A DNA stretch of 64,000 bases from Nitrososphaeria archaeon. Its GTDB lineage: Archaea; Thermoproteota; Nitrososphaeria; JACIWG01. Location of the stretch: contig CAVVXT010000003.1 in NCBI GenBank assembly GCA_963752255.1, positions 113,076-177,075 of the forward strand, in the 5' to 3' direction. Both the position numbers and the translations under genes were made by a program. The notes below the pieces were generated by a model, which saw only the letters and a list, made by a program, of their open reading frames with translations, was not told the origin of the DNA and searched no databases. Position 1 is the stretch's first letter. Each line of letters begins with the position of its first letter. Below are positions 10,157-63,982 of the stretch, piece by piece.

Positions 10157-10420
10157 ACTAAAACACCATCTTTTTACCTACTTCAATCTTATAAATGTTC
10201 CTCATACACTTAGAATTGAAGGTCTCTAATATTAATATCCAGTTTACATTACACCCTATGTTTTGAGATATAAGAGTGAGTATTTGGATAATATATAATG
10301 AAATCATTTTGCTCTTTTTTTTCTCATAATTAATATGTTCAAGTTTAATTCTAAAAATACCTTCCATTAGTTTAGATTTCATATAAGCACGCTTATCATG
10401 TTCTGATTCCTTTACCCTAC

Positions 10421-11473
10421 TCACATTTTTGGTTCAACTTGGACTTTGAGAGCTTTAGCACTATTTACCAGGTCAAATCCTTCTTTCAGTCGATTAAGTG
10501 GAAAAGTATTGGAAACGAGTTTCTCTACATTTATCTGCTTCTTTGAAAGAACTTTCAAAGCCCTCTCAACATGAGCTGGAACATGATCATAACTTCCTGT
10601 GACCTTGAGTTCACCATAATGTATAATGTTGGGGTCCAATTCAATATTCGTTTGAGGGTAGGTTCCACCGAAAAACACAATTGTGGCCGATGAAGCCACC
10701 GCTTTAAAAGCACTTTCTATAGCAGTTCTGTTTCCTGTCGCTACAATTACAGAATCAGCACCATATCCTCCTGTGAAATCTTTAACAGCTTTAGACATAT
10801 CTTCCCTCAAAGGGTTGACTATTGAGTCGGCACCTAGCTCGATTGCCATTTTGAGTCTGCTTTCAATAACTTCACTTAATATAACACTTGCTCCTGAAAG
10901 CTTAGTAATCTGTAGGTTAAGCAGACCCATTGGTCCTCCGCCTATGATCAAAACTGTCTCACCTGGTCTTGGTGATATTATCTCATTCGCATGTAAACAC
11001 ACTGCAATCGGTTCTGTAAACGCAGCTTCCAAAAAACTTACACTTTCTGGGATTCTGAACAAAGACTTGGCAGGCGTCTTTGCATATTCAGCAAATCCTC
11101 TAACGATATTACTTTTATTTTTGCACAAATTCGTTAAACCTTTTTCACAATACTTACAAATTCCGCATGAGACAATTATTTCAGGTACAACTCTATCTCC
11201 TATAGAGAAATCCTTAACCGAACCGCCAACTTCAACAACGTCGCCACACCATTCATGTCCAGAAAGACCATAGCTTTCTTTACCATATGGAAACATCTGC
11301 CTCTTATACACACCTTGATAACTTCTTACATCGCTAGGGCAGATACCGATTCTTTGAACTCTTATCAAAACTTCGTCTTCCCTAGGAGTTGGAATGTCGA
11401 CATCTTCTATGTGGATGTCCATCGGACTATAAAGTAATGCAGCCTTCATCTTTTTTCTATTAAAATTAGACAT
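10421..11473 (-). CDS. Zn-dependent alcohol/polyol dehydrogenase (MDR family)
   Basis: GICPSD, GHE, CGICKYC...C and GGGPMG motifs. Confidence 0.9.
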   Translation of the reverse strand: MSNFNRKKMKAALLYSPMDIHIEDVDIPTPREDEVLIRVQRIGICPSDVRSYQGVYKRQMFPYGKESYGLSGHEWCGDVVEVGGSVKDFSIGDRVVPEIIVSCGICKYCEKGLTNLCKNKSNIVRGFAEYAKTPAKSLFRIPESVSFLEAAFTEPIAVCLHANEIISPRPGETVLIIGGGPMGLLNLQITKLSGASVILSEVIESRLKMAIELGADSIVNPLREDMSKAVKDFTGGYGADSVIVATGNRTAIESAFKAVASSATIVFFGGTYPQTNIELDPNIIHYGELKVTGSYDHVPAHVERALKVLSKKQINVEKLVSNTFPLNRLKEGFDLVNSAKALKVQVEPKM

Positions 11474-46484: not shown

Positions 46485-46604
46485 ATTTCTCTTAAAGTCT
46501 CGACAACTTGCACTATATAGATTTTTTCAAAAAAGTTTTATAATATAACTACTATATTGATGTAAGTTGGAAATCTCACAGGTATAGCACGAAGGACTGA
46601 TTGA

Positions 46605-47096
46605 CTAAACCTTATTATTTCGAGAGATGAAGTCTTCCTTATCACCTGATAGTTGGTAAATATATGCTCCAATTTCTACCTTCCCTTCTCTTCTAAGTTT
46701 AGAAACGAGCCAAGACAATAAGCTAAATTGTTCTACTGTAAGTGGTGGGTCCTTATAACGTGATGGATCGCTGAAGACCCATTCACCTTCTCCCTGCTTA
46801 TATGCCTTCCAAGGAAGCACGCTAAGGGCGGGTTCTTGAGCTTGTTGTGATATTATACTGGGCTGGAAGCTCTGTTCAGACTGGGATGTAGGAACAGGAG
46901 AAGGTTTTGTCTTCCTTAATCCTAAAACATAAACCAATGTAATATCTTGAAATAGATTTCCTTTCTTATCCACTTTTGAGATCGATCTTTCTTTTATTGA
47001 TAGAAGCTCCCAACCATTGAGAAGATGGTCATTTACTGCTTGAACTTCTGTTAGCTCTTTTACAGCTTCTATACCCCTATAATATCGTTCATTCAT
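46605..47096 (-). CDS. Hypothetical protein
   Basis: 163-aa ORF; VNDHL..GWELL and WKAYK..EGEW segments. Confidence 0.65.
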   Translation of the reverse strand: MNERYYRGIEAVKELTEVQAVNDHLLNGWELLSIKERSISKVDKKGNLFQDITLVYVLGLRKTKPSPVPTSQSEQSFQPSIISQQAQEPALSVLPWKAYKQGEGEWVFSDPSRYKDPPLTVEQFSLLSWLVSKLRREGKVEIGAYIYQLSGDKEDFISRNNKV

Positions 47097-47598
47097 TGAT
47101 TATACTGTCCTCTACTCGTTATATATGAACGTAATCCTTTTCTTAAATCATTTTTCAAATCATATCAGCTGCCCTACTCTAACTAATGTTCAATTCCTAA
47201 TTATTATGATCGGCATTTAAATTTTTAGAAATGCTCGGAAACTTGTCACGAGGACATAATAAAAATTCATGTTCATTGGAGGATCCCTTATTTTATTCAA
47301 AGTTCAACCCAAGCAAGGTCGGTTGTACTTAATGAACTTTAAAATGCAAGTTACAATTTAAAGAAAGTGAAATTTCTTCAAATATTAGAAAAGATATAGG
47401 AATTATGAAAGAAAAAGTGCATGCTTTCCTTCGCTTAGTCTATCAAGTCTATTTAAATATTATGTCTCACACACTAAGTTTATGGAATATAATGTGAATG
47501 GTTTCGACACAGATCTTCCCAAACGAAACATTAGCCCGTTTGTTATGTCAGGGTTAATGGTAGTACTTTTTGTCAACCACTGGTAAACTGATCAACAT

Positions 47599-48288: not shown

Positions 48289-48376
48289 AAGATTATAAGT
48301 GTAGGGTACACTATGTATATCATATATTCTATTATCTTCAATAAAAAGATTATTAGTGTAGGGTAAACAAAGTGTT
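48289..48376 (+). repeat. 23-bp direct repeat (21/23 identical) with a 57-bp period, forming a motif B pair
   Basis: AAGATTATAAGTGTAGGGTACAC and AAGATTATTAGTGTAGGGTAAAC. Confidence 0.8.
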
Positions 48377-48796
48377 ACCACTATTGTAAATTTAATATGT
48401 GTTGGCAAGACACTATACCAATTATAGCATTCAAAGACTTAAGGAAACAGATAATATAGCTGAGTTAAAAATATTAATTGTCGAATAGGTTAGATAGTCT
48501 ATTCATATACTCGGAAGCATATTAAAGAAATAGCCATAAGATTCAGTTTTAATCTTTATGGAACATCAATTTCTATGTACTAATTGAACTGGTAACATTA
48601 ATTATTGCTTTCGTTTTTTTAGTTGTATATTTCCAGAAAATAGTCCAAACCTTTTAACTTCGATTTATTGCACTTCCGTCCATATATATTATTTGGGAGA
48701 AAATAAAAGAATTTAATAGCAAAACTACCAAAATATCACTACCATTATAAGTATAAGTACAACGATAAAGTATTCTTCACGAAATCTCTGAGCTAA

Positions 48797-52780: not shown

Positions 52781-53602
52781 ACAAAAACCACGGCAACTCA
52801 AAAGTTAGCCAATGAGCTACAAAACTTACGACAATTAAAGTGTAAGCAAGTTTTGAATTCATCTTTTATATAATAGTATATACCAAGATATTTAAGATTA
52901 TAACTTTAGACTACAGTAAATTTATATATTGAAAAAGAAATTTCTAAAATTTCAGAAATAGAGAAGGTAGTTAAAGAACTTAGCAGAAAAGGCTAGGGAT
53001 TAACTAGCCAAACATCAGAAAATACAAAGTTTCCCTATAAACTATACACTTACGATGATATCCAAAAAAGATAGAAGTATATATAAAAGCATACCGAATA
53101 GCATTAATGCGAAAAGAATTTAGATATAAAAAAGATGTTAAAAAACAGAAGAGATATATAAAAAATAAAAAAAAGTAATTGCCTTTACCAAATTCCATTT
53201 TGATTCATGCTTTAGGAAATATCACTAAGAGATTACTACCTCATTAGCATAATCGTTTCCAGCAGAAGTGTGAACTTCGATATAGAAATTTTTATTCTAT
53301 CGCCAACTCTGGCGGTGTAGTCCAATGGTCAAAGGTGCTAGGGTCTATTTCAAAAGACATGACCTTTTCTTTATCTAGGATATTTTGAATGGTTGGAAAT
53401 AGAGGCATATGAAAGGTTAAAGCGTCTCTTATCTCAGGCGTTAAATCGTCCCTTCTTATCGTCCGCAAAGTATTTCCTAAATTGAATAAGATGGTTGCCT
53501 CTGGTGAAGCATATAGAGAAGATGTAATGGAACAAATAAGACACAAAGGATAAGTATTAAAAAATAAAGCTGAGAAAAAGAAAAAAGAGGAAGATATAAA
53601 AC

Positions 53603-53837
53603 ATGTTTAGTAAGCGTGAAATCGAGTATATAGACAATCCTTCTAAATTCAATAAACCAATGACAAAATACCTTAGACATCAAATAAAAAAAAGATTATA
53701 GAACTAAAGCAAGAAATAGAACTCATAAAATCAAACCAAGAACTTTCTAACCTTTTCGATGAAACCTTTATGGTGAAATTACAAAGGTTTCCTGCAGAGC
53801 GGATCTACAGGGGTTCAAATCCCCTCCCCACCTCCTT
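53603..53837 (+). pseudogene. Int(N): N-terminal fragment of a split tyrosine integrase, reading into the att copy
   Basis: MFSKREIEY...KYLRHQIKK[K]IIELKQEIELI...QRF-PAERIYRGSNPLPTS; needs one extra A in the A8 run at 53686-53693. Confidence 0.65.
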
Positions 53838-54070
53838 GAAACTTTTGAAACGTTATGCGATTGAAAAGTTCCGTCAAAACTTAGTGTTGTGTAAATTACT
53901 AAATTCCGTAATTTAATTTTGTAAGTGTTGGGTAAATACTGTTTATCATACATCACCAAAGATTGTAGTTGTTTTATTATCCAGGCTTTCGTTTCTTGGT
54001 TCATTAAAAGAGTAGGTAGAATCTGTTTCTCGAAATGATTTAGTTTTTGTTTGATCCTATATCTCATCAC
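53768..54070 (-). CDS. Small ORF (DYxxxxRYRIKxKL motif) reading antisense through the att copy
   Basis: ORF track; basic-helix motif resembles the Int(N) YLRHQIKKK segment. Confidence 0.4.
   Translation of the reverse strand: MMRYRIKQKLNHFEKQILPTLLMNQETKAWIIKQLQSLVMYDKQYLPNTYKIKLRNLVIYTTLSFDGTFQSHNVSKVSRRWGGDLNPCRSALQETFVISP
53791..53837 (+). repeat. att site: 47-bp exact copy of the tRNA-Cys 3' half, inverted relative to the tRNA
   Basis: CCTGCAGAGCGGATCTACAGGGGTTCAAATCCCCTCCCCACCTCCTT equals the reverse complement of 55817-55863. Confidence 0.97.
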
Positions 54071-54093
54071 TGTCTCATAATCTTTTGATGACT

Positions 54094-54825
54094 TTAGGAT
54101 TTATCTTGTAGAATCTTGTTTCTTTCATCTTCATCTTTTAATTGAGTGATTTTAACATTTATGAAATTATATATTTTTTTCATTCTTTTATGTCCTAATT
54201 CTTCTTTGAATATTTCTGAAAAAACCATCAAAGTAAGTAATGGATAACTAGAAATAGGATCATATTTTTTTGAGTCAAAAAATGGTCCTAATTCAAAAGT
54301 AATAAGTGGATACTTAGACTCAATCCTATCTATGAATGAAATAATGGCCTTGGGTTCAGAGTGAACGAACTCACTTAATTGGTGATAAATAATATTAAAA
54401 TCTGTCTTTTCAATTTTTAAGAGTTTGCCGATATAGTTAATTAGTCTACTCTTTGGAACTTTAATATTCTTTCCTTTAATCCAATTTTCACACTCCTTAT
54501 CATTAAGATTGAAGTATGCACAAAGTCCAATGCTTTCAAGAAGACCTCTTAGAAGTATTGATTCGTCATAATAGAAACCCCTTAAATTCAAAACTCTAAT
54601 AGATTGTAGTGTTTGGATAATTCTTGGCATGATTATTAAGATAGAATCTTTTGTGCTTGAAAATCCATGCCTTTTTTTGCTTAAATTTACAACGTAAAAA
54701 AATTCTTTAATTAGTTCATTGAAAGAACTTTCATAAATTTCGAAGTACATTTTAAATTCATTCAGCGTCTTTTTTTCGATTTCTTCTTCATCATCAAGAA
54801 AATCCTTGATAATCGATTTTTTCAT
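54094..54825 (-). CDS. DUF5677/HEPN-like all-helical protein
   Basis: LRGLLE and YHQLSEFVH motifs. Confidence 0.7.
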   Translation of the reverse strand: MKKSIIKDFLDDEEEIEKKTLNEFKMYFEIYESSFNELIKEFFYVVNLSKKRHGFSSTKDSILIIMPRIIQTLQSIRVLNLRGFYYDESILLRGLLESIGLCAYFNLNDKECENWIKGKNIKVPKSRLINYIGKLLKIEKTDFNIIYHQLSEFVHSEPKAIISFIDRIESKYPLITFELGPFFDSKKYDPISSYPLLTLMVFSEIFKEELGHKRMKKIYNFINVKITQLKDEDERNKILQDKS

Positions 54826-54891
54826 TATTATCTTCTCCCATCTTCTTAGTTAATCTAAATATATCAATTAATATTATCAAACTAGCCAACA

Positions 54892-55863
54892 CTAAAAAAG
54901 AACTTTTAATCCTGCTTTCTCATATATTTCTCTCAATCTTTCTGAACTGTAATCTGAATAATGTCTTGCTAACACAGATTTTGGTGTTCTACCGCAGAAT
55001 GCGTCCACGTAACGATCAGGAATATTTAGTCTTCCCATTTCAGAGCAGAACCATTCTCTAAGTGTTTGTGGTGTTATTTTTATTCCAGATCTATTTGATG
55101 CTTTCATAAAAGTTAATTATATGTTAGCTAAATTGAAAGGAATTAGTTTTTCATCACCGTCATTTCTTGACATTAAATATTCTTTTAGAATTTTATATGT
55201 TTCTTGGTTGAAGAATGAAATCCATGATTTCTTAGTGTTCCCTTTATGGTTTCTTGGTATTATCATTTTTCTCTCAAGATCCACATCTTCTTTTGTTAGA
55301 CTTTGTAATTCCCCTATTCTTAAACCACTTGAAGCCAACAATAAGAAGATGGTTCTCTGTTTCAGGTTTGGTAAATAGTCATAGAATGTGTTAAGTTCTT
55401 TTTTTGATGGAATTGTCTTAGGTTCATAGTTTATGTTTGGTAGTTTGAAACTTGAAATAACTTCAGATTTACGAAGATAATCCCTAAAGAACCTTCTTAA
55501 TGCAGATACTATATTCTTGTACGTCCAAGGTTCATCTTTGAATTTAATAAGATATTCTCTAATATCATTATCATCAATTGAATAAGGATCTTTTTTTACA
55601 CATTGTAGAAACCTTTTAACTTCTATGACATGATGTCTCTTAACTGTATTGCAACTAAGTTGTAGATCGACAAGACAGAACCTTTCAAATTTAGATAGAA
55701 GGTTAGCAAAATCACTAACTGGGTTAGGAACTACCCTAACCATTATAGAACAAGGATAATTATTAGAAACTGCCAATTTTCCATGAATGCTTTGAGACGA
55801 AGTTTCAAAGGATTCTAAGGAGGTGGGGAGGGGATTTGAACCCCTGTAGATCCGCTCTGCAGG
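54892..55863 (-). pseudogene. Int(C): tyrosine recombinase catalytic fragment, open through the tRNA 3' half, with an in-frame TAA at 55117-55119
   Basis: SSGLRIGE, TKK, TPQTLREWF and CGRTPKSVLARHY motifs; both ORF-track pieces share one frame. Confidence 0.88.
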
Positions 55864-55892
55864 CGGATTCGTAACGTCTCCGACACCCCACC
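55821..55892 (-). tRNA. tRNA-Cys(GCA), intronless, CCA not encoded
   Basis: GGTGGGG/CCCCACC acceptor stem, TCG/CGA D-stem, TCCGC-CTGCAGA-GCGGA anticodon arm, AGGGG-TTCAAAT-CCCCT T-arm, U73 discriminator. Confidence 0.93.
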
Positions 55893-55941: not shown

Positions 55942-56357
55942 TATTTTTATTGAGCCTCTTTAATGTGTTTAAATCATAACCTTTTAATCGTTTTCTTTAT
56001 TGCTTTATCAAATATCTTACCTGCTCTTTTAATTAAGGTGGGAAATCCTGTTAAAATAACTAAGCTAAAGCAGACAAGCGGTTTAAACCCTCTTTAAACC
56101 CTTAACCTGCACTATTTTACAGTTAACACCCTGGTGCCGAGGCCTTAAACTGGTTCAGGTAATACCAACAATCAAGCAGGCTTAGCTATTTGGATCAGTT
56201 ATATTTTGCGATATTGATCTATAACCGTGATGGGTTAAGTCAAATTGTTTAAATATATAACGTAATGGAAATTGGTTCATTTAAGATTTATTAATTCAAA
56301 TAGAATTCCCAAAGTAGAATATTTAGGGTTATTTATCTTCACATTGACATTAGTTTT

Positions 56358-57261: not shown

Positions 57262-60200
57262 TTACTTTGAGATAAAGCCGTCGAGATCGTTTGTCAGACT
57301 CCCAGTTTCCGAAATTAATTCTCTGACAATTTTATCTATCTTCAACAATTCTTCCGTAATCTCGACCTTTATCAGCTGCCTAATCTTTCCGACACCAGAA
57401 TACTTGGATTCCATGCCTATTACTAGTTTCTCGGATTTGACCTGAGCCTGCTTTGCAAGGCTAATCAATTCCACGTGTTTCTTATTCTTTGGGTCATATT
57501 TCGGCAGAGGGAGTTCAAAGACCTTCTTGTGTATGTCCCGCTCACCCCATTGACCTCGGCTCTGCATCGGCTTTATCAAAGAGTCAACTATTGGAGCATT
57601 TAGCATGGCTGAAATGAATAAGGCTTCATCGTAATCGTTTATGTCAAAACGATAGGCTTTAGCGTCCGCAATAATTCCTGACGTCTTGATTTGGGAAGAA
57701 TCAATTTTGATAGTTGATGGCCCATTCTTCAAGACGCAGGAAACCAGATAGGTTCCAGACGTGTTGTAGAGGACTTTATATTTCGCTCTTGAGCTTTGTG
57801 AAGTCAAGCCTCTCTGGTAGTCGAGACGTTCGTAGACGTCTAACTTCCTAGCTTTCTCTCCTCTTTTTTCTTTCCAGATCCTTTCAGCATCAGTCAACCA
57901 GCCATTGAGCCCAGAATACCCTTTCCTCTGCGCCTCATCAGCCTTGATAATGCGATAAGTACTGCCACTTGATTCTATCGGAAGAACTGCAGTAGGAAGG
58001 GTTGTTGTACAGAACGGAGCTAATTCAGAGCCAGTAACAATTTGGTAAAGAAACTCTGACTCGACTTCACCCTCTATAAGTACATCTTCGTACCCCTCCT
58101 TAGCTCTGTCTATGGCACGCTGTGATGTTTTCAGTCTTGGCTTACTTGGGTCAAGTCCTAACCTAGGATGAGCAACCGGTTCAACGAACCAGATGGACCT
58201 AGGAACAATTGTTGCCCCTTGTGTGAAATTCCCGTAGTATGGGCTGCGTTGTCCTTTCCCAATTGTTTTTAGTACTTTCTCAAATTCTTGACTTTCGAGA
58301 AAGGATCTTTGTCCAATTTCGTAATATTGGAATTTCTTTTTTGTCTGCTTGAGCGACTTGATTGCCTCTGCAAGTTTAGAATTCTTTTTTGAAAGAGTCC
58401 CTTCGAAAACAATTGTATCAACAGGATACCTATTCGTTCCCTTCTGTGCAGTAATTACGCAACAAGGTATACGAAAGAGGGGTGCCACATCTTCGAGATC
58501 CATTAACTCGATTATCCTCAATTTTGGACTGAACAACCCTTTTCTGAAGTTATGATGCTGATCGCTGACAAACAGGCTTCTTGGCATAACAAACGAAATG
58601 GTGCCGTCGTTTGCCAGATACAAGTCTGACGCTCGCGCAAGGAACAGGGTAGCAAGATCCATCTGTGTGATAAGCTCAGCTCTTTCTGATCCAAGCAGTT
58701 TATACTGTTCTAGAATAGCCTTTTTCAAAAACACTTGATAGTCTGTACTTTCAACGTACCTGTAAGAGAGCCAGGGAGGGTTACCGATTACAACATCGAA
58801 CTTCTGGTCCCGTAAGAAAAGAGGTTTGTACAGGTTTTTGAGAATGAATGCCCAGACCGTGTCCTTCTTTTCTTTGATAAGTTTGGCCATTGTCTGCGCT
58901 GTCTCAAACAGCACTTTGGAGTCGTTCATAACGATTTTGTTTTCGGAAGGAAGTTGAATTCCCTGTGACAGCAGGTTTTCGAAATCTTCCAGTTCCGCTT
59001 TTTCAATGTTAGCAACTGTCCTTGCATATTCCTTCACTACTTGAACCACTCTGTCCGTTAGTGTTGGATCTTCCGCGATATCAAGGGGTAATCTAAGAAT
59101 TTTCTTCTCTGCTTTGATTTTAAAGGTCTTAATGTCAGAGTATATTTCGACATCAAGTTCAGGTAGGCGAATCGAATCAGCCAAGTACACGGGCACGGAT
59201 ACGGGCCCACGTCTTGCAGAGAGGAGATCAGTTCCAAGTGCAGCTAAGAAGTTCGTTCTTGATAATATGACTGCTAGCGGATGAACATCGACACCTTTTA
59301 TGGAATTTAGCAGAAGCTCCAGTTGCTCACGAGGCTTCTTCTTTTTCAGCAGTTGTTTCTTTATACGAATGCTTGCAGCCAGAAATGTTCCGGAACCGCA
59401 AGCAGGATCGAGGACAGTCTTGCTAGGATCGTCTCCAATCGCCTTTTCGACCATAAGTTCAGCCAGCCAGTCAGGGGTGTAATATTCTCCTATATCATGT
59501 CTGGCCTGTGGATCGACAAGCTCTTGGTAGAGAGATTTCAGAATATCTTCGTCTATTGTTGTCAAGTCATAGAAAGCCAGTCTCTCAAGAAGCACAGTCG
59601 CTGCTTTTATGCCTGATTCAGATCTCGCAACCCATGAGAAAAAATCTTCCTCAAGGAAGTTGTGTACGTTCCATTTTTCGAAAACCTTTCCTTCCAGAAT
59701 TTCTACGATTTGCTCAGGCGATACAGGCAGAGCTCCCCCCGAGAACGAGGAATAAGCGAGCAGCTTGGCGAGTGTTGCCAAATACGTGTGTCGAATGAAC
59801 AAATCTTCGCTGTCAACGCTCGACCCGTAGACGATTCTGAGGAAGCCTGCCCATTGCTCATACAGGACATCTTCCTTGTTATTCCTCCAAGCTTCTTTAA
59901 GAAAAGCTTCCGCGTCGTTGAACGCGGGTTTATTTAGGCCGAATTCACCAGAAAACGCTTCAGCGGTCGCTGGCCTCAGCGCTTCAGTAAGCATATACCT
60001 GTCAAGCCAAACGAACGCAGGTCCTGGTTTGGTTTGCGTCAGGTCTATTCTGTCGATCTGATCCAAGAAAACATCATCTGGAGCAACCTCTCCTTCATCA
60101 ACAGCCGTTCTAGGCCTGTAACTCACAAATTTGATGCCGTCAGTCGCAATGACGACGTAAGGCACACGATGTTCCCCTTGTTGAGTCCAGAGAATCGATA

Positions 60201-60507
60201 TGTAACGTCGTAATTCGGATTCTGCCTCATCCAGACTTTTTCTGTCAAGTACCCTTTTGAATTCGATGATCAGATTTCCAAGGAAAGCATCGATGCGACC
60301 TTTGACAACAAGCGTTTTAGCTTTGGCAGTAATATGCTTCTCCAAAATCGGAAACAGCTTTTCAAGGTAATCTGCATCGATCTGCTTGAACACTCCACGT
60401 GAAAATTCAAGGAACAAGAATGCTTTGCTCGCCTCTGAATTTGCTTGCTGCACATCTACCAAATATTCCTCAAGCCACTTCTGAAAGCTGGATGGAGCAT
60501 TCGACAT
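57262..60507 (-). CDS. Type IIG-like fused restriction endonuclease/N6-adenine methyltransferase
   Basis: N-terminal GRIDA...IIEFK PD-(D/E)xK motif; GEYYTP, DPACGSGTF (motif I), NPPW (motif IV); long C-terminal specificity region. Confidence 0.88.
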   Translation of the reverse strand: MSNAPSSFQKWLEEYLVDVQQANSEASKAFLFLEFSRGVFKQIDADYLEKLFPILEKHITAKAKTLVVKGRIDAFLGNLIIEFKRVLDRKSLDEAESELRRYISILWTQQGEHRVPYVVIATDGIKFVSYRPRTAVDEGEVAPDDVFLDQIDRIDLTQTKPGPAFVWLDRYMLTEALRPATAEAFSGEFGLNKPAFNDAEAFLKEAWRNNKEDVLYEQWAGFLRIVYGSSVDSEDLFIRHTYLATLAKLLAYSSFSGGALPVSPEQIVEILEGKVFEKWNVHNFLEEDFFSWVARSESGIKAATVLLERLAFYDLTTIDEDILKSLYQELVDPQARHDIGEYYTPDWLAELMVEKAIGDDPSKTVLDPACGSGTFLAASIRIKKQLLKKKKPREQLELLLNSIKGVDVHPLAVILSRTNFLAALGTDLLSARRGPVSVPVYLADSIRLPELDVEIYSDIKTFKIKAEKKILRLPLDIAEDPTLTDRVVQVVKEYARTVANIEKAELEDFENLLSQGIQLPSENKIVMNDSKVLFETAQTMAKLIKEKKDTVWAFILKNLYKPLFLRDQKFDVVIGNPPWLSYRYVESTDYQVFLKKAILEQYKLLGSERAELITQMDLATLFLARASDLYLANDGTISFVMPRSLFVSDQHHNFRKGLFSPKLRIIELMDLEDVAPLFRIPCCVITAQKGTNRYPVDTIVFEGTLSKKNSKLAEAIKSLKQTKKKFQYYEIGQRSFLESQEFEKVLKTIGKGQRSPYYGNFTQGATIVPRSIWFVEPVAHPRLGLDPSKPRLKTSQRAIDRAKEGYEDVLIEGEVESEFLYQIVTGSELAPFCTTTLPTAVLPIESSGSTYRIIKADEAQRKGYSGLNGWLTDAERIWKEKRGEKARKLDVYERLDYQRGLTSQSSRAKYKVLYNTSGTYLVSCVLKNGPSTIKIDSSQIKTSGIIADAKAYRFDINDYDEALFISAMLNAPIVDSLIKPMQSRGQWGERDIHKKVFELPLPKYDPKNKKHVELISLAKQAQVKSEKLVIGMESKYSGVGKIRQLIKVEITEELLKIDKIVRELISETGSLTNDLDGFISK

Positions 60508-61121
60508 GCTTTCTACTTAATAGAATTTAGGTAATAAGCCTATATAGAGTTTGCAGCCTCCCTACCTGTTCATCATCGTGACAGGTCTTTACCAAATTGG
60601 TAAACACTAAAAATTTCCCCTAACGACAAGCTGGGAAAGGCATCCACCTAATATAAAATAAACTTTACCGATTTTGTTAAGGTTTCCTTTACCTATCTTG
60701 TTAAGGAAAAAATGCTGAACAGACGTTGATAAATTCTGTTCAGGCAGAATTTTTTTAACAAAATTAGCGCTAACAGTCTGCTGACTTGCTCGGACAGATG
60801 CCCCTGTGTTCAAACGATTATCATCTTGCTCTCATGCAGAGCGCATTTAAGTTGAACAGAATAAAAGAGTTAGTGCTAACTTTTTTTCCGAAAAATCAGT
60901 TGAGCAGAACATAATTGCGCCTAACCGCTCCCTTGATTAACCTTAACGGAATCGGTAAAGGCTCTTTAAAAGTGAAACTACTGCGACCATAGAAAGAGCA
61001 AAGAACAAATTACCAGAGGAACAAAAAATAGAAAAATCAGAAGTTAAGGAGGAAAAGAAAATGCAAAAAAAGTCTAATGAAGTAAAACAGGACCGGGAAT
61101 ATGGCAATATAGGTGAATGAA

Positions 61122-61492
61122 GTGAGCGATAAAAAACCTGTCGGCAACCCGCCGACAGAAAAAAAGATGAAAAATTAACAGAAAAGCAGAAAGAACATGA
61201 TAAATTTATACAAGAGCTACGTCAATCAGCCCATAAGCTCGGGTATCTCCATCCTGTTGTAAAGACGCGTTATGGGGTACTCATGTGTAATTCACGAATT
61301 GAAGCTGATCCCAACTGGACGGTTAAGGAGGTTGACGTTGACAGCCAGTACGATCATTACAAATTAGAGGCGGGCGACAACTTCCGTGAAGAAAAGGACG
61401 ACACGTGGTGGACAGATATTTTAACAAAAGCAGCCAAGGAACTTCTGGAAGGAGGTACTCCAAAAGGGAAGATAGCCCGAATACGATCTTAG
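61122..61492 (+). pseudogene. ParB/Srx-like N-terminal domain gene (frameshift near 61160)
   Basis: ELRQSAHKLGYLHPVVKTRYGVLMCNSRIEADPNW; GTG start after GGTGA. Confidence 0.55.
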
Positions 61493-61507
61493 CTAAGGTG
61501 AAAATTA

Positions 61508-61693
61508 ATGAGTAAAAATAGCCAAAACCCAGATGACACGAAAGAAGAAAATTCTGCTCCAACTGGTGGGAGCAGAAATGAAGATAAAATAGCAGCAAAA
61601 AAAGCAGAGAATGATAAAAAATTACAAAAACATATAGATGAATTGCGTGAATCTTACAAGAAAATTAAATCACTCCATCTCGTCAAAAATTGA
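61508..61693 (+). pseudogene. Truncated paralog of the ParB-like N-terminus
   Basis: KHIDELRESYKKIKSLH, then stop. Confidence 0.55.
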
Positions 61694-61980
61694 AACACAA
61701 TTCTAAGAATGACTTGAGCAAACGATCTGCATTAACTCTATTTTTTCTTAGAATCATTATCGTTTTACCTTTGAGCTGGACCGAATCATTTCCCGATTCT
61801 TTTTTTCGACTACGGAATATTCCTTGTCTAATATGATGGCCTTGCTCATTTTACTCCCTCTAAGGCCTCGAATACGCTATCGGTGAAATCATCCACGTTA
61901 CTCTTATACTGTTTTAAATTGACCAAGATCTGACCTCTGTCCTAACCTTATGCCTCACTTCTCTCTGAAGTGCCCATCCT

Positions 61981-62280
61981 TCAAAGATTTTTTTTGCTGC
62001 TCCGAAGATAAGAGAGTAGGCCGTTTATGAAGTCTATTGTCCTCTGCTTTTCTATGTCGGGAAGCAGCGTTTGAATTGTCTCATAGATGGGGGATTTGTC
62101 TCGACCGATTTCTTCTTCCTCCTTCTTCCATTCCACGATCTTCTGCGATATGGTGAGGAGCTTCTGATACATTCCTTCGGTTTTCGTTTTCTTGTCTATC
62201 AGTTCTCGATAGATAAGAAGGAGGGCAAGGTAATAGGTTTCAATGGAATCAATAATGTGAAGCAGATCGTAGGCAAGTTA
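61981..62280 (-). pseudogene. Internal fragment of a helical hypothetical gene
   Basis: Start-less open frame LAYDLLHIIDSIETYY...YLRSSKKNL. Confidence 0.35.
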
Positions 62281-62477
62281 GAATGGAGTGCTCCGATTTT
62301 CTTGTAAGATTCGCGTAGTTCCGCTATGTGTTTTTCTTTTTTATCATTATTTTCTTTTTTGTCATCCTTTTTTGTTGATTCTTTACCTTTATTTTCTGTT
62401 GCAACTGTTGCAACAGACTTTTCTGCTTTTGTTTCATTTGTGTTTTGGCTATTTTTGCTATTGTTTTTTTCGCTCAT
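62199..62477 (-). pseudogene. Truncated paralog of the ParB-like N-terminus (inverted copy)
   Basis: MSEKNNSKNSQN...KHIAELRESYKKIGALH, then unrelated sequence. Confidence 0.55.
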
Positions 62478-62967
62478 TTCATCACCCGAGATCGTATCCG
62501 GTCTTTGGATGCAGCACATCCTTTCCCTTTTCTTCCTTAACTTCTAAGGTAGCTGAGGATGGGGTTTCAGCTGTAAGATCTTTTGATTGGTTCGAAGTTA
62601 ATACTACTGTTTCTGAATTTACTGTTACTGGTTTCGCAGGCGGCGGAGGCGGAGGTGTTACAGGAACCGCTGGAGCGCTCGGCGGTCCAGCCTCTTTAGA
62701 TAGATTACCTTACAAAGAAGTTGAATCAGCTCTATGCAAGGATAGGGGAGGTTTTCCTGGAGGGCCTAAAGAGGACGACAGCACATGAAGCAGCCAAGAT
62801 CATAAGCAGACACCTCAAGGAGGAATACGTAGCGGTTCCGGCCTACGTTGAAATAGACAAAAAACATCAGGGGATACACTTTCGAGAAGAAGAAGGAAAT
62901 CACCTAAGTACCTCCTTGGCTCTCCTCATCACTCCCCTTAACTTTACCCTAAACCTATAAATTCTTC

Positions 62968-62984
62968 TGATATCAAGCTTGATA
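62968..62984. repeat. Motif A: TGATATCAAGCTTGATA
   Basis: Directly visible. Confidence 0.8.
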
Positions 62985-63000
62985 ACGGTCATAAAGTAAA

Positions 63001-63025
63001 TTCTGCATTAAGAGTTAATGCAGAA
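63001..63025. repeat. Perfect 11-bp inverted repeat TTCTGCATTAA-GAG-TTAATGCAGAA
   Basis: Directly visible. Confidence 0.85.
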
Positions 63026-63328
63026 CTCATGAAACGATTGCTTTAAAAAAAACTTACCCAGTTTGTAAAGGTTGTTTATACCTACCCGCTTTCAGGCCCA
63101 GGAGCCGTAATCATGATTGTCTTAGCAACCTCCTCAGGATCCTCACGCATTAGCTTCCCGATCTTCTGTGAACCTGTATCGACGGTTTCCGTCCTTTTAA
63201 CGATCTTGTCAATTACATCTACGCAGGAATCTATGATCCTGAATTTTACTCGCTTAAACCAGCCAAAACGTTAGATTTCAACAGCTCTTATATAACCCAA
63301 AAGCAGACTCCAATTCATAATTTTTTAG

Positions 63329-63982
63329 TCAATGCACCCTCTCAACATTAAACAACTCTAGGAGATCCTCTATTTCTTCCTTTTCATCATCTGATGGCCT
63401 CCATCCACAAAGTTCACATCTGCTTTCTGGATTTAATCCTTCAGTTTCTTGTTTAAGCTTCTCAACTAGAATCCCGACCTTATCCCGAAGCATTTCTTGT
63501 GCATCTTTTACACCTTCAATAGCATCTTGATTCTTTGGATCTTTTCTGGCATCAAGTTTAAAGCAATGCAGATCTTTCAATACGCAATAAATATCGGGGT
63601 ATCCGGTCTTTAAATGTTCAAAACCTATCTTCAGATATTCAGGTTTAGGGTTAAGGTCACCTTCAATATAGTAGCGTCCTGGTCTAATTAGTGCGAGCAA
63701 ACCAGATGCTATAGTGGGTTCATGTTCTCTCGAAAACTGTTTTTGTTTATTTGCCCCTCCAAGAGCCTCTACCCCTTTATCTGTGAGTCTAATTTGGAAA
63801 GACTTCCCTTTTACCCTGTCACCCATTTTCACATAGCCTTTTACTATTGGGTTCGCCAAGATTCTATCTACCGACTTTCTACCATAAGGTTCACATGCAA
63901 CATACAGGTCTCTCTTGGATATACTTGCGATCCCTCTAATTTTATGTTGCTCAAGTCCGATTTTTGTTAAGATCCTTTTCAT
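63329..63982 (-). CDS. Hypothetical protein with a wHTH-like N-terminus and a CxxC near the C-terminus
   Basis: KGYV...IRLTDKG; CELC. Confidence 0.6.
   Translation of the reverse strand: MKRILTKIGLEQHKIRGIASISKRDLYVACEPYGRKSVDRILANPIVKGYVKMGDRVKGKSFQIRLTDKGVEALGGANKQKQFSREHEPTIASGLLALIRPGRYYIEGDLNPKPEYLKIGFEHLKTGYPDIYCVLKDLHCFKLDARKDPKNQDAIEGVKDAQEMLRDKVGILVEKLKQETEGLNPESRCELCGWRPSDDEKEEIEDLLELFNVERVH

What the first reader, a model, noticed from the sequence alone, without database searches (positions are those of the whole stretch)
53603..55892. Inverted tRNA-Cys att pair with a split integrase: candidate self-splitting/self-joining DNA inversion switch
Seen: the last 47 bp of the tRNA-Cys region (55817-55863, minus strand, starting at the anticodon loop) are repeated exactly at 53791-53837 on the PLUS strand. 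The integrase C-half is open through the tRNA copy (PAERIYRGSNPLPTS-LESFETS...) with no canonical start codon inside or upstream of the att. An N-half (MFSKREIEY...QRF) enters the other copy in the same PAERIYRGSNP frame. Known: SSV1/pTN3-type archaeal integrases carry attP inside int and are split into Int(N)/Int(C) on integration, normally between DIRECT repeats. Inference: with inverted repeats, recombination flips the 2-kb segment instead of excising it. That would fuse Int(N)-att-Int(C) into one frame of about 386 codons and leave the tRNA intact. It is either a phase switch gating its own recombinase and cargo, or the scar of a 'suicidal' intramolecular inversion. The assembled allele has a missing A in Int(N) and a TAA in Int(C), so it may now be locked.
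Basis: partly seen in the sequence, partly recalled or inferred. Interest (0 to 1): 0.9.

Follow-up and report, generated by a model that had tools for sequence, protein, structure and literature searches.

The report
Rearranged relic of self-splitting archaeal integrase
A tiny mobile element whose integrase gene is cut in two by its own insertion sits at the only cysteine tRNA gene of this archaeon, but one of its two ends has been turned round, so it is most likely a trapped, decaying leftover and not a working DNA switch.

Summary
A perfect 47-nt inverted repeat of the tRNA-Cys 3' half lies at 53791-53837(+) and 55817-55863(-), and these are its only two copies in the genome. An integrase body reads out of the tRNA. 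An Int(N) ORF reads into the inverted copy in the same frame. An A8 frameshift and an in-frame TAA break the two halves.

The integrase belongs to the SSV-type ('suicidal') family. Relatives show the normal layout. In 20 of 71 family loci examined the second att copy is direct, and none has a perfect inverted pair. One is a 2.2-kb twin of this element (L133). The Int(N) peptide is homologous to the Int(N) of a normally split relative (L072).

The 261 bp after the inverted copy is the native flank downstream of tRNA-Cys, as shown by a same-genus genome, a metagenome contig and one contig of a close strain. It now points the wrong way. So one ordinary integration and one illegitimate rearrangement happened, in an order I could not settle.

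I read it as a locked, decaying relic (about 0.7). An active phase switch is unlikely (about 0.05), but no reads of the source could be laid. This scan noted related att flips on other DNA (e1-2661342, e1-1108572), not this layout.

The parts
53603..53790 (+). Int(N) pseudogene: MFSKREIEYI...KYLRHQIKK, then a frameshift, then KIIELKQEIELIKSNQELSNLFDETFMVKLQRF. It runs into the att copy.
   Evidence: ORFs. Read through with X at the break, it aligns from its first residue with the Int(N) of L072 (score 61, 0 of 1000 shuffles) and with the small ORF of G001 (score 75, 0 of 1000).
53686..53693 (+). A8 run where the Int(N) frame is lost. The two open frames are one base out of register here.
   Evidence: Sequence; frames.
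53791..53837 (+). att copy (attR type: Int(N)-att-native flank), inverted relative to the tRNA gene.
53838..54098 (.). Native flank downstream of tRNA-Cys ('Y'), here pointing towards the tRNA gene. On its minus strand (54100 to 53768) it carries the Int(N) relic of an older element, which natively read into the tRNA antisense.
   Evidence: L047: an intact tRNA-Cys followed by this flank, 119 nt at 89%. G001: 61 nt at 93%, and the ORF is 69% identical over 32 aa. X1 contig: 53301-53585(+), 54 nt, then the reverse complement of 54098-53924. The ORF versus the L072 Int(N): E 2e-8.
54094..54849 (-). Cargo gene, DUF5677 family, 243 aa from ATG 54825, apparently whole.
   Evidence: Pfam PF18928 E 1.5e-6. 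Nearest Atlas clusters are DUF5677 proteins of 212-260 aa. No PHROG match.
54892..55116 (-). Int(C), last 74 codons after the internal stop. It holds the conserved PDRYVDAFCGR...ARHY...Y block.
   Evidence: PF16795 E 9.7e-6, 26.0 bits against a cut-off of 27. It keeps all 21 invariant columns of alignment A4.
55117..55119 (-). In-frame TAA that truncates Int(C) before the catalytic C-terminal block.
55120..55816 (-). Int(C), from the att to the internal stop: a linker, a SAM-like domain and the start of the catalytic domain.
   Evidence: PF00589 E 2.8e-9, PF13495 E 6.2e-6; phrog_1 integrase E 3.3e-21. 27 homologues; 2369 proteins at E<=1e-3.
55817..55863 (-). att copy inside the intact tRNA gene (attL type: tRNA 5' half-att-Int(C)).
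55819..55892 (-). tRNA-Cys(GCA), intact, the only one in the genome.
53583..53595 (+). AAAAGAGGAAGAT: one arm of a 12-of-13 inverted microhomology with 54127-54139. It sits at the left illegitimate joint.
   Evidence: Not significant (59 of 500 shuffles reach it). Contig matches break at 53585 and 54139.
54127..54139 (-). The other arm of the microhomology, near the right illegitimate joint.
48396..48490 (+). Older relic of an integrase C-terminus (VLARHYTNYSIQRLKE...) in the same island.
   Evidence: Also present in G001 and in contig C7 of this genome.

Best explanation
What it is. This is the relic of a minimal (about 2 kb) integrative element that carries an SSV-type ('suicidal') tyrosine integrase and one DUF5677 gene.

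Shown:
- The element's attachment site is the 3' half of tRNA-Cys and lies inside the integrase reading frame.
- The right junction (tRNA 5' half-att-Int(C)) and the left junction (Int(N)-att-native tRNA flank) are both exact products of normal att x att integration.
- The left junction, together with 261 bp of native flank, points the wrong way compared with relatives and with the family norm.

Inferred:
- The element integrated normally into tRNA-Cys, which split its integrase gene.
- Afterwards a local illegitimate inversion turned the roughly 0.5-kb piece Int(N)-att-flank. Its breakpoints lie just upstream of Int(N) (about 53585) and at the end of the DUF5677 gene (54098-54139).
- That left attL and attR as an inverted repeat.

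Consequences:
- In this geometry an integrase supplied in trans could only flip the 2-kb segment, never excise it, so the element is trapped.
- The A8 frameshift in Int(N) and the TAA in Int(C) show it is now decaying.
- It is not a regulated switch.

The reverse order of events (the rival below) uses the same two illegitimate joints. I rank it lower only because it needs a chance insertion within 300 bp of the att site.
For: Family membership:
- Integrase domains are present.
- The homologues in the table carry PF16795. At least 9 of the 26 non-self hits start with peptides coded by a tRNA T-arm (recognising these peptides is my own reading).
- 14 of the best 150 representatives have an N-terminal extension of 72 residues or more, with tRNA-coded peptides in it.

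Family norm:
- Of 80 family loci, 71 had enough upstream DNA to examine. 20 of them have a second att copy in direct orientation.
- 4 have only short, imperfect inverted hits (27-41 nt, 90-93%). None has a perfect inverted pair.
- The same script calls the window's pair inverted, 47 nt, 100%.
- L133 is a normal twin. tRNA-Gln, then Int(C) reading RALDPLTGVRISS..., then 2.2 kb further on an Int(N) reading KALDPLTRVRISS into a direct att copy.
- Elements of 1.5-2.2 kb exist in L071, L061, L072 and L133.
- In this same genome, the one other partial tRNA copy that lies on the same contig as its gene (tRNA-Ala, 25 kb away) is direct.

Int(N) is genuine:
- It is homologous to the L072 Int(N). In L072 both att copies are read in one frame.
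- One Logan contig of run X4 carries the Int(N) start, the att and then a related but different Int(C)-like start (tables 5 and 7).

The native flank is turned:
- L047.
- G001.
- The X1 contig that joins 53585 to the reverse complement of 54098.
- Orientation anchors are the same in G001: repeat (b) and the 164-aa gene (46605-47099, 93% identical).

Lesions.

Foreign composition: G+C is 0.28-0.32 at 54-56 kb, against 0.36-0.46 further to the right.

Known chemistry: suicidal integrases invert DNA between inverted att sites in vitro (PMC7253208, passages read).
Against: - No reads of the organism that carries the element could be laid, so the orientation in the population is unknown. A 47-nt inverted repeat could in principle let an assembler choose the orientation of the enclosed 2 kb.
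- The direct evidence for how L and Y lie relative to each other is a single contig of 514 nt, laid at a 90% threshold. Its two pieces are 94% and 98% identical. The tool warns that joints found below 95% can come from other organisms or repeats.
- Part of L (53289-53410) is a dispersed repeat, although 53411-53585 is unique.
- Contigs of X2 and X3 follow the window to 54139, not 54098, and then continue with unlike sequence. The native joint therefore varies between strains, and I could not see the 54 nt in the X1 contig.
- The microhomology at the joints is not significant.
- The breakpoints fall exactly at gene ends, leaving Int(N) and the DUF5677 gene whole. This is a coincidence under either order of events.
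- hhalign found no likeness between Int(N) and the RHH-type N-domains of 10 full-length homologues.
- A search for longer proteins containing the Int(N)+att peptide found none.
Confidence: 0.5

Rival explanations
1. Scar of a self-inflicted inversion. An intact Int(N)-att-Int(C)-DUF5677 module first landed by illegitimate or microhomology-mediated recombination about 290 bp downstream of tRNA-Cys, convergent with it. Its own integrase then recombined the attP inside its gene with the neighbouring attB in the tRNA. Because the two sites were inverted, this flipped the 2-kb segment, split the gene and stopped integrase supply.
For: - If the segment between the att copies is flipped back, the locus differs from the native site (L-54 nt-flank-tRNA) by a single 1.95-kb insertion. 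That insertion is flanked by 12-of-13 direct repeats (with coordinate arithmetic), which is the fewest differences from the empty site.
- The second step is established chemistry (PMC7253208; PMC8371274).
- The boundaries of the inverted segment then coincide exactly with the att copies, as site-specific recombination predicts.
Against: - It needs a non-att insertion to fall within 300 bp of the element's own att site in a 2.1-Mb genome, while the normal reaction at that site was available.
- No family locus shows an intact integrase next to an inverted tRNA target (0 of 71).
- The flanking microhomology is not significant.
Confidence: 0.22
2. A working, self-limiting invertible switch. The 2-kb segment flips between a state with an intact integrase gene and a state with a split one, gating integrase and perhaps the DUF5677 gene. 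The two lesions would be assembly errors, or would be bypassed by slippage at A8 and stop read-through.
For: - The geometry allows it: perfect 47-nt inverted sites and the same frame on both sides.
- The frameshift lies in a slippery A8 run.
- Enzymes of this type invert without cofactors.
Against: - From the split state no integrase is made, and split halves were inactive in vitro (PMC8371274, passage in section 29). The switch could therefore turn only one way.
- The TAA removes the conserved catalytic C-terminal block.
- The layout is unique among 71 family loci and absent from the 9 family-level relatives searched.
- The cargo gene is whole in both states.
Confidence: 0.05
3. Assembly artefact. 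The orientation of the 2 kb between the 47-nt inverted repeats was chosen wrongly by the assembler, or the contig is a chimera of strains. The real genome would then hold the intact-integrase state or another layout.
For: - The genome is a 19-contig assembly.
- Inverted repeats shorter than the k-mer leave orientation open.
- Several strain variants of this locus exist in metagenomes.
Against: - 47 nt is shorter than the final k-mers and read lengths commonly used, so reads normally span it. This rests on my general knowledge, since the assembler is unknown.
- A normal direct-repeat layout cannot be turned into this one by collapsing a repeat.
- The two illegitimate joints share at most 13 nt, too few for a k-mer chimera.
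- Either orientation still leaves an inverted att pair to explain.
Confidence: 0.1

Closest known systems
SSV-type (type I, 'suicidal') tyrosine integrases: SSV1, pTN3, pT26-2 (PMC8371274 and PMC7253208, passages read)
   Same: The attachment site is a tRNA 3' half lying inside the integrase frame. Integration splits the gene into Int(N) and Int(C). The PF16795-type C-terminal block is present. No separate excisionase is needed.
   Different: Here attL and attR are inverted instead of direct, so excision is impossible. The element is only about 2 kb. The host is a mesophilic peat or soil archaeon rather than a hyperthermophile. Int(N) is not the RHH type seen in many full-length relatives.
Normal minimal elements of the same family found here: L133 (Bathyarchaeia MAG, tRNA-Gln, 2.2 kb) and L072 (Hadesarchaea MAG, tRNA-Ser, 2.1 kb)
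   Same: The integrase family is the same (61-72% identity in the C-terminal block). The size is the same. Int(C) and Int(N) read through the att copies in one frame. The L072 Int(N) is homologous to the window's.
   Different: Their att copies are direct. L072 reads the tRNA antisense, whereas the window and L133 read it sense.
Inversions linked to integrated suicidal-integrase elements: TKV2/TKV3 in Thermococcus kodakarensis and Int-pTN3-driven inversions in T. nautili (as described in PMC8371274 section 35 and PMC7253208 section 16)
   Same: An inversion changes how Int(N), att and Int(C) moieties of integrated elements are joined. Int-catalysed inversion between inverted sites is possible.
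   Different: Those are large chromosomal inversions between two different elements or tRNA genes. Here about 0.5-2 kb is involved, within one element and its own target.
Classical invertible switches (Hin/Gin, FimB/FimE, shufflons). Named from my own knowledge; no call tested them.
   Same: A segment is bounded by inverted recombinase sites.
   Different: Their recombinase stays intact in both states and the layout is conserved. Here the recombinase gene itself is cut, the allele is broken, and the layout is not conserved.

Membership tests
SSV-type (suicidal) tyrosine integrase element | Tyrosine-recombinase catalytic domain | tested here: met
   PF00589 E 2.8e-9, above its cut-off. phrog_1 integrase E 3.3e-21.
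SSV-type (suicidal) tyrosine integrase element | PF16795 (Phage_integr_3) C-terminal domain, which the review ties to suicidal integrases (PMC8371274 section 9) | tested here: inconclusive
   The window's 74-aa piece scores 26.0 bits against a cut-off of 27. Most of its homologues carry PF16795 in the table. The piece keeps all 21 invariant columns of A4.
SSV-type (suicidal) tyrosine integrase element | The attachment site lies inside the integrase reading frame | tested here: met
   Int(C) is open through the att, and Int(N) enters the other copy in the same frame. The same holds in L133 and L072. Caveat: an ATG at 55743 could start a protein of about 283 aa, and many homologues are of that length.
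SSV-type (suicidal) tyrosine integrase element | Int(N) is homologous to the Int(N) of other members | tested here: met
   L072 Int(N): score 61, 0 of 1000 shuffles. Not met against the RHH-type N-domains.
SSV-type (suicidal) tyrosine integrase element | The integrated form is bounded by direct att repeats, with Int(C) at one end and Int(N) at the other | tested here: not met
   The copies are inverted. Direct in 20 of 71 family loci.
Invertible DNA switch (phase variation) | Inverted recombinase sites bound the segment | tested here: met
Invertible DNA switch (phase variation) | A functional recombinase is available | tested here: not met
   Frameshift in Int(N) and TAA in Int(C). No other close copy of this integrase in the genome.
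Invertible DNA switch (phase variation) | Both orientations are present in a population | not testable with these tools
   No run holds half or more of the stretch's words (best share 0.22). The four runs laid were contigs of other strains.
Invertible DNA switch (phase variation) | The layout is conserved in relatives | tested here: not met
   0 of 71 family loci have a perfect inverted pair. G001 has no such pair at its tRNA-Cys.

The most novel reading that the evidence does not exclude
The inverted attL/attR pair may be a natural 'self-joining' recombinase gene. Any related integrase brought in by a superinfecting element would flip the 2-kb segment and rebuild an intact Int(N)-att-Int(C) gene in the chromosome without excision. 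Trapped relics of this kind, where two Int(N) genes converge on one att that is read sense by one and antisense by the other, would then be the intermediates through which suicidal integrases swap N- and C-moieties and change the orientation of their att.
Probability: 0.07. Interest if true: 0.7.

Novelty: new variant of a known kind. Interest (0 to 1): 0.33.

Why it matters
If the reading is right, this is a clear natural example of what happens when the two ends of a 'suicidal' integrase element end up inverted. The element can no longer leave, and a helper enzyme could only flip it. That bears on a standing question for these elements: how integrases that destroy their own gene persist and exchange parts. 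The models in PMC7253208 invoke inversions between elements. The locus also shows that very small (1.5-2.2 kb) elements with this kind of integrase occur widely in mesophilic archaea, and that the same tRNA-Cys site was used by relatives that read the tRNA in opposite senses. As a single broken allele in one assembled genome, it is a curiosity and not a new mechanism.

Tried and rejected
- **Homologous recombination between the two convergent Int(N) genes** as the cause of the flip. Rejected. It predicts hybrid genes, but the X1 contig matches the older Int(N) relic up to 54098 at 98%, and no inverted repeat links 53586-53650 with 54040-54098.
- **A large plus-strand element ending at 53837.** Rejected. 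There is no third att copy or 11-mer of it in the window or genome, and L has the same orientation as in G001.
- **Reading the element as antisense type.** Rejected. Int(C) reads RGSNP, which is the sense reading of the T-arm.
- **Cover in the four runs laid.** Bins 54227-54854 and 55012-55796 had no depth in any of them, and 53599-55796 almost none. I use only the joint.
- **Run listing.** The best share of words was 0.22, so no habitat or strain claim is made.
- **Searches that found nothing:**
  - Rfam on 44-64 kb found only the tRNA.
  - PHROGs and Pfam gave nothing for Int(N), the Y ORF or the small ORFs right of the tRNA.
  - The Atlas gave no usable hit for the G001 small ORF.
  - hhalign of Int(N) and of the G001 ORF against A2 was negative.
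  - BLASTP of the 32-aa Int(N) piece against the L072 Int(N) found nothing, before the read-through alignment.
  - The search for longer proteins with the Int(N)+att ORF found none, which is weak evidence.
  - Viral contigs held no relative of the DUF5677 gene or of Int(C).
- **The class-wide search** gave 18 non-self loci, 17 of them without a tRNA within 1.5 kb. One of those loci (L041) is from the unpublished genome G230.
- **The dispersed repeats in L and R** are not tRNA-derived and show no conserved ORF.
- **Papers:**
  - PMC8371274, PMC7253208 and PMC6563490: only the passages returned by 'find' were read.
  - The others: listing only.
  - Supplements were not seen. The supplementary tables of PMC7253208 and PMC8371274 may list layouts like this one.
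  - I ran no search that would support a claim that this layout is unpublished.
Full report
**Observation.** The repeat finder gives arms 53791-53837 and 55817-55863, 47 nt, 100% complementary. A 32-nt core occurs twice in the window against none in 100 shuffles. A 42-nt core with up to 3 mismatches occurs only at these two places in the 2.1-Mb, 19-contig genome. ARAGORN and Rfam place an intact tRNA-Cys(GCA) at 55819-55892 on the minus strand. It is the only tRNA-Cys among the 39 tRNA genes found. The repeat begins at the anticodon loop and ends 2 nt past the tRNA.

On the minus strand a frame is open from 55893 through the tRNA for 258 codons to a TAA at 55117-55119. The same frame then runs for 74 more codons. 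Homologue P0002 aligns across the TAA in one piece at 51% identity. On the plus strand an ORF starts at ATG 53603 and ends after 32 codons. The frame that enters the att copy as PAERIYRGSNPLPTS is one base out of register at the A8 run 53686-53693. Flipping the segment in silico gives one frame of 386 codons with that frameshift and one internal stop.

**What the genes are.** The minus-strand ORF has a SAM-like domain and a phage-integrase catalytic domain. Its last 74 codons match the archaeal integrase domain PF16795 just under the cut-off. Between the integrase and the inverted att copy lies a whole DUF5677 gene of 243 aa. The word-indexed search gave 27 proteins, the best non-self hit at 47% identity. 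The exhaustive search gave 2369 proteins at E<=1e-3.

At least 9 of the 26 non-self hits begin with peptides that are translations of a tRNA T-arm, such as GFEP, RDLNP, RDSNP, DRIRTDD and EFESP. Recognising these is my own reading. In 14 of the best 150 representatives the conserved core starts at residue 72 or later. Their N-terminal extensions hold a ribbon-helix-helix-like segment, and several hold a tRNA-coded peptide. This is the signature of the SSV-type or 'suicidal' integrases, whose att lies inside the gene (PMC8371274, passages read).

**The family norm.** A scan of one genome per species with the conserved C-terminal block returned 80 loci from Bathyarchaeia, Hadarchaeota, Nitrososphaeria, Methanomethylicia, haloarchaea and others. 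I compared the 5' region of each integrase with the rest of its locus.
- 9 loci had too little upstream DNA, which left 71.
- 20 of the 71 have a second att copy in direct orientation.
- 4 have inverted hits, all short and imperfect (27-41 nt, 90-93%).
- None has a perfect inverted pair.
- The same script run on the window reports the 47-nt, 100% pair as inverted.
- Among the 14 direct pairs in which one copy lies in a tRNA gene, the tRNA is on the strand opposite to the integrase in 11 and on the same strand in 3. Seven further loci have a same-strand tRNA at the integrase 5' end. So both readings of the tRNA occur in the family.

Some elements are tiny: 1.53 kb (L071), 1.66 kb (L061), 2.1 kb (L072) and 2.2 kb (L133).

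L133 is a normal twin of the window's element. tRNA-Gln comes first, then Int(C) reading RALDPLTGVRISS. 2.2 kb further on, an Int(N) reads KALDPLTRVRISS into a direct att copy.

In L072 both the Int(N) ORF and Int(C) read VRKVAPGRGFEPLRPKGPQVLQT. Its Int(N) starts MLSKSELKFL...DYDRVMKHRIRAKLLKFEHEV. The window's Int(N), read through with X at the break, aligns with it from the first residue (score 61, 0 of 1000 shuffles).

Against this, Int(N) shows no likeness to the RHH-type N-domains. No longer protein holding the Int(N)+att peptide was found.

**The flank is native and turned round.** The 261 bp after the plus-strand att copy (53838-54098, 'Y') is what normally follows the tRNA-Cys gene.
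- In JGI contig L047 an intact tRNA-Cys is followed by it: 119 nt including the att, 89% identical.
- In the same-genus genome G001 the match is 61 nt at 93%. The ORF on the opposite strand is 69% identical over 32 aa.

That ORF (54100 to 53768, minus strand in the window) is itself an Int(N) homologue (E 2e-8 against L072). In G001 and L047 it reads into the tRNA antisense, which is the normal position of Int(N) for an element of the antisense type. So an older relative used the same site.

Orientation anchors are shared with G001. Repeat (b) at 53289-53362 and the 164-aa gene at 46605-47099 (93% identical) lie on the same side and strand relative to the tRNA.

One Logan contig of a peat metagenome (X1, 514 nt) runs 53301-53585, then 54 unknown nt, then the reverse complement of 54098-53924. 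In that strain Y lies next to L in the opposite orientation, with no Int(N) and no att between them.

Caveats on that contig:
- It is a single contig, laid at a 90% threshold (its pieces are 94% and 98% identical).
- Part of L is a dispersed repeat, though 53411-53585 is unique.
- Contigs of X2 and X3 follow the window to 54139 and then differ, so strains vary here.

**How it arose.** Write L for the left flank, N for Int(N), a for the att, Y for the native flank, G for the DUF5677 gene, C for Int(C) and T for the tRNA 5' half. The window reads L N a Y | G' C' a' T' on the plus strand. The native site reads L (54 nt) Y' a' T'.

Both att junctions, T-a-C and N-a-Y, are exact products of normal integration. 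What is abnormal are two other joints: L to the start of N (about 53585/6), and the end of Y to the end of G (54098/9, or 54139/40).

Recombination at att keeps inverted sites inverted and direct sites direct. It cannot create this geometry alone. One illegitimate event is needed, and there are two possible orders.
1. Normal integration of a 2-kb circle, then a local inversion of the piece N-a-Y.
2. A non-att insertion of the intact module next to the tRNA, then an Int-catalysed flip between the attP in the gene and the attB in the tRNA.

Both orders use the same two joints. A 12-of-13 microhomology (AAAAGAGGAAGAT at 53583-53595 against 54127-54139) sits at both joints. It is an inverted repeat as the window reads, and would be a direct repeat flanking the module if the segment were flipped back. 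It is not significant in this A-rich DNA (59 of 500 shuffles).

I prefer order 1. It explains why the element is at its own att site, whereas order 2 needs a chance insertion within 300 bp of that site. Order 2 does need the fewest differences from the empty site. It is also chemically straightforward, because pT26-2 integrase inverts DNA between inverted att sites without cofactors (PMC7253208).

**Is it a switch?** I think not.
- From the split state no integrase is made.
- The review reports that split halves are inactive in vitro.
- The allele has a frameshift and a stop that removes the conserved C-terminal block.
- The layout is not found in 71 family loci or at the tRNA-Cys of G001.
- The cargo gene is whole either way.
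- In this same genome, the one other partial tRNA copy on the same contig as its gene is direct (tRNA-Ala, 25 kb).

What remains possible is that a related integrase arriving in trans would flip the segment. The X4 contig suggests that related elements with Int(N)-att-Int(C) in one piece exist in similar habitats. No reads of the source population could be laid, so active flipping is not excluded.

**Comparison with what is known.** The element works like, and by most tests is, an SSV-type integrase element. It fails the one defining feature of the integrated form, direct att repeats. Inversions that involve integrated suicidal-integrase elements are known at chromosome scale (TKV2/TKV3, pTN3). 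They are part of a published model for how these integrases exchange parts. This locus is a small-scale version within a single element. Earlier notes of this scan on other DNA describe a flipped tRNA site inside a split archaeal integrase (e1-2661342) and an att broken by inversion (e1-1108572). I did not test those.

**Verdict.** It is a rearranged, trapped and decaying relic of a minimal suicidal-integrase element: a new variant of a known kind, of modest interest.

Noticed in passing
window 52926-53012, 53289-53410 and 56029-56207: Three dispersed intergenic repeats with 3-6 further copies at 78-97% identity in this genome, and further copies in the same-genus genome G001. The first two co-occur at 0.4-1.1 kb spacing at three other places. 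They have no Rfam match, no conserved ORF and no likeness to the genome's tRNA genes.
   Followed up: partly
window 48396-48490 (+); L027:1327-1404; G000 contig C7:38994-39172: An older relic of an integrase C-terminus (VLARHYTNYS.QRLKE). It is shared with G001 and has another copy in this genome. Further short relics lie in contigs C8, C2 and C12, so the family invaded this lineage repeatedly.
   Followed up: partly
window 46533-47304, 48298-48447 and 60463-63930, compared with L048:3442-6283: Block order differs between this genome and G001. In G001 the sequence like 63845-63930 is joined directly to the sequence like 48298-48447. The window's end (64000) is the end of contig C3. The whole neighbourhood of tRNA-Cys is a scrambled island.
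   Followed up: partly
L061, L071, L072, L133 (loci): Integrated elements of only 1.5-2.2 kb, little more than a self-splitting integrase, occur in Hadarchaeota, Bathyarchaeia and a Methanobacteriota-labelled MAG. In the family the tRNA is read sense in some elements and antisense in others, with homologous Int(N) domains.
   Followed up: partly
L072:9309-10216 and 10360-10500: The Int(C) of this normal relative is itself frameshifted, and a second relic of an integrase C-terminus lies beside it. Such sites collect debris.
   Followed up: no
window 57262-60516 (-): A 1081-aa protein with N6-adenine methylase and Eco57I-type domains (a type IIG-like restriction-modification enzyme) lies 1.4 kb from the tRNA, on its 5' side.
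   Followed up: no
That would be a second inverted arrangement in the same island.
   Followed up: no
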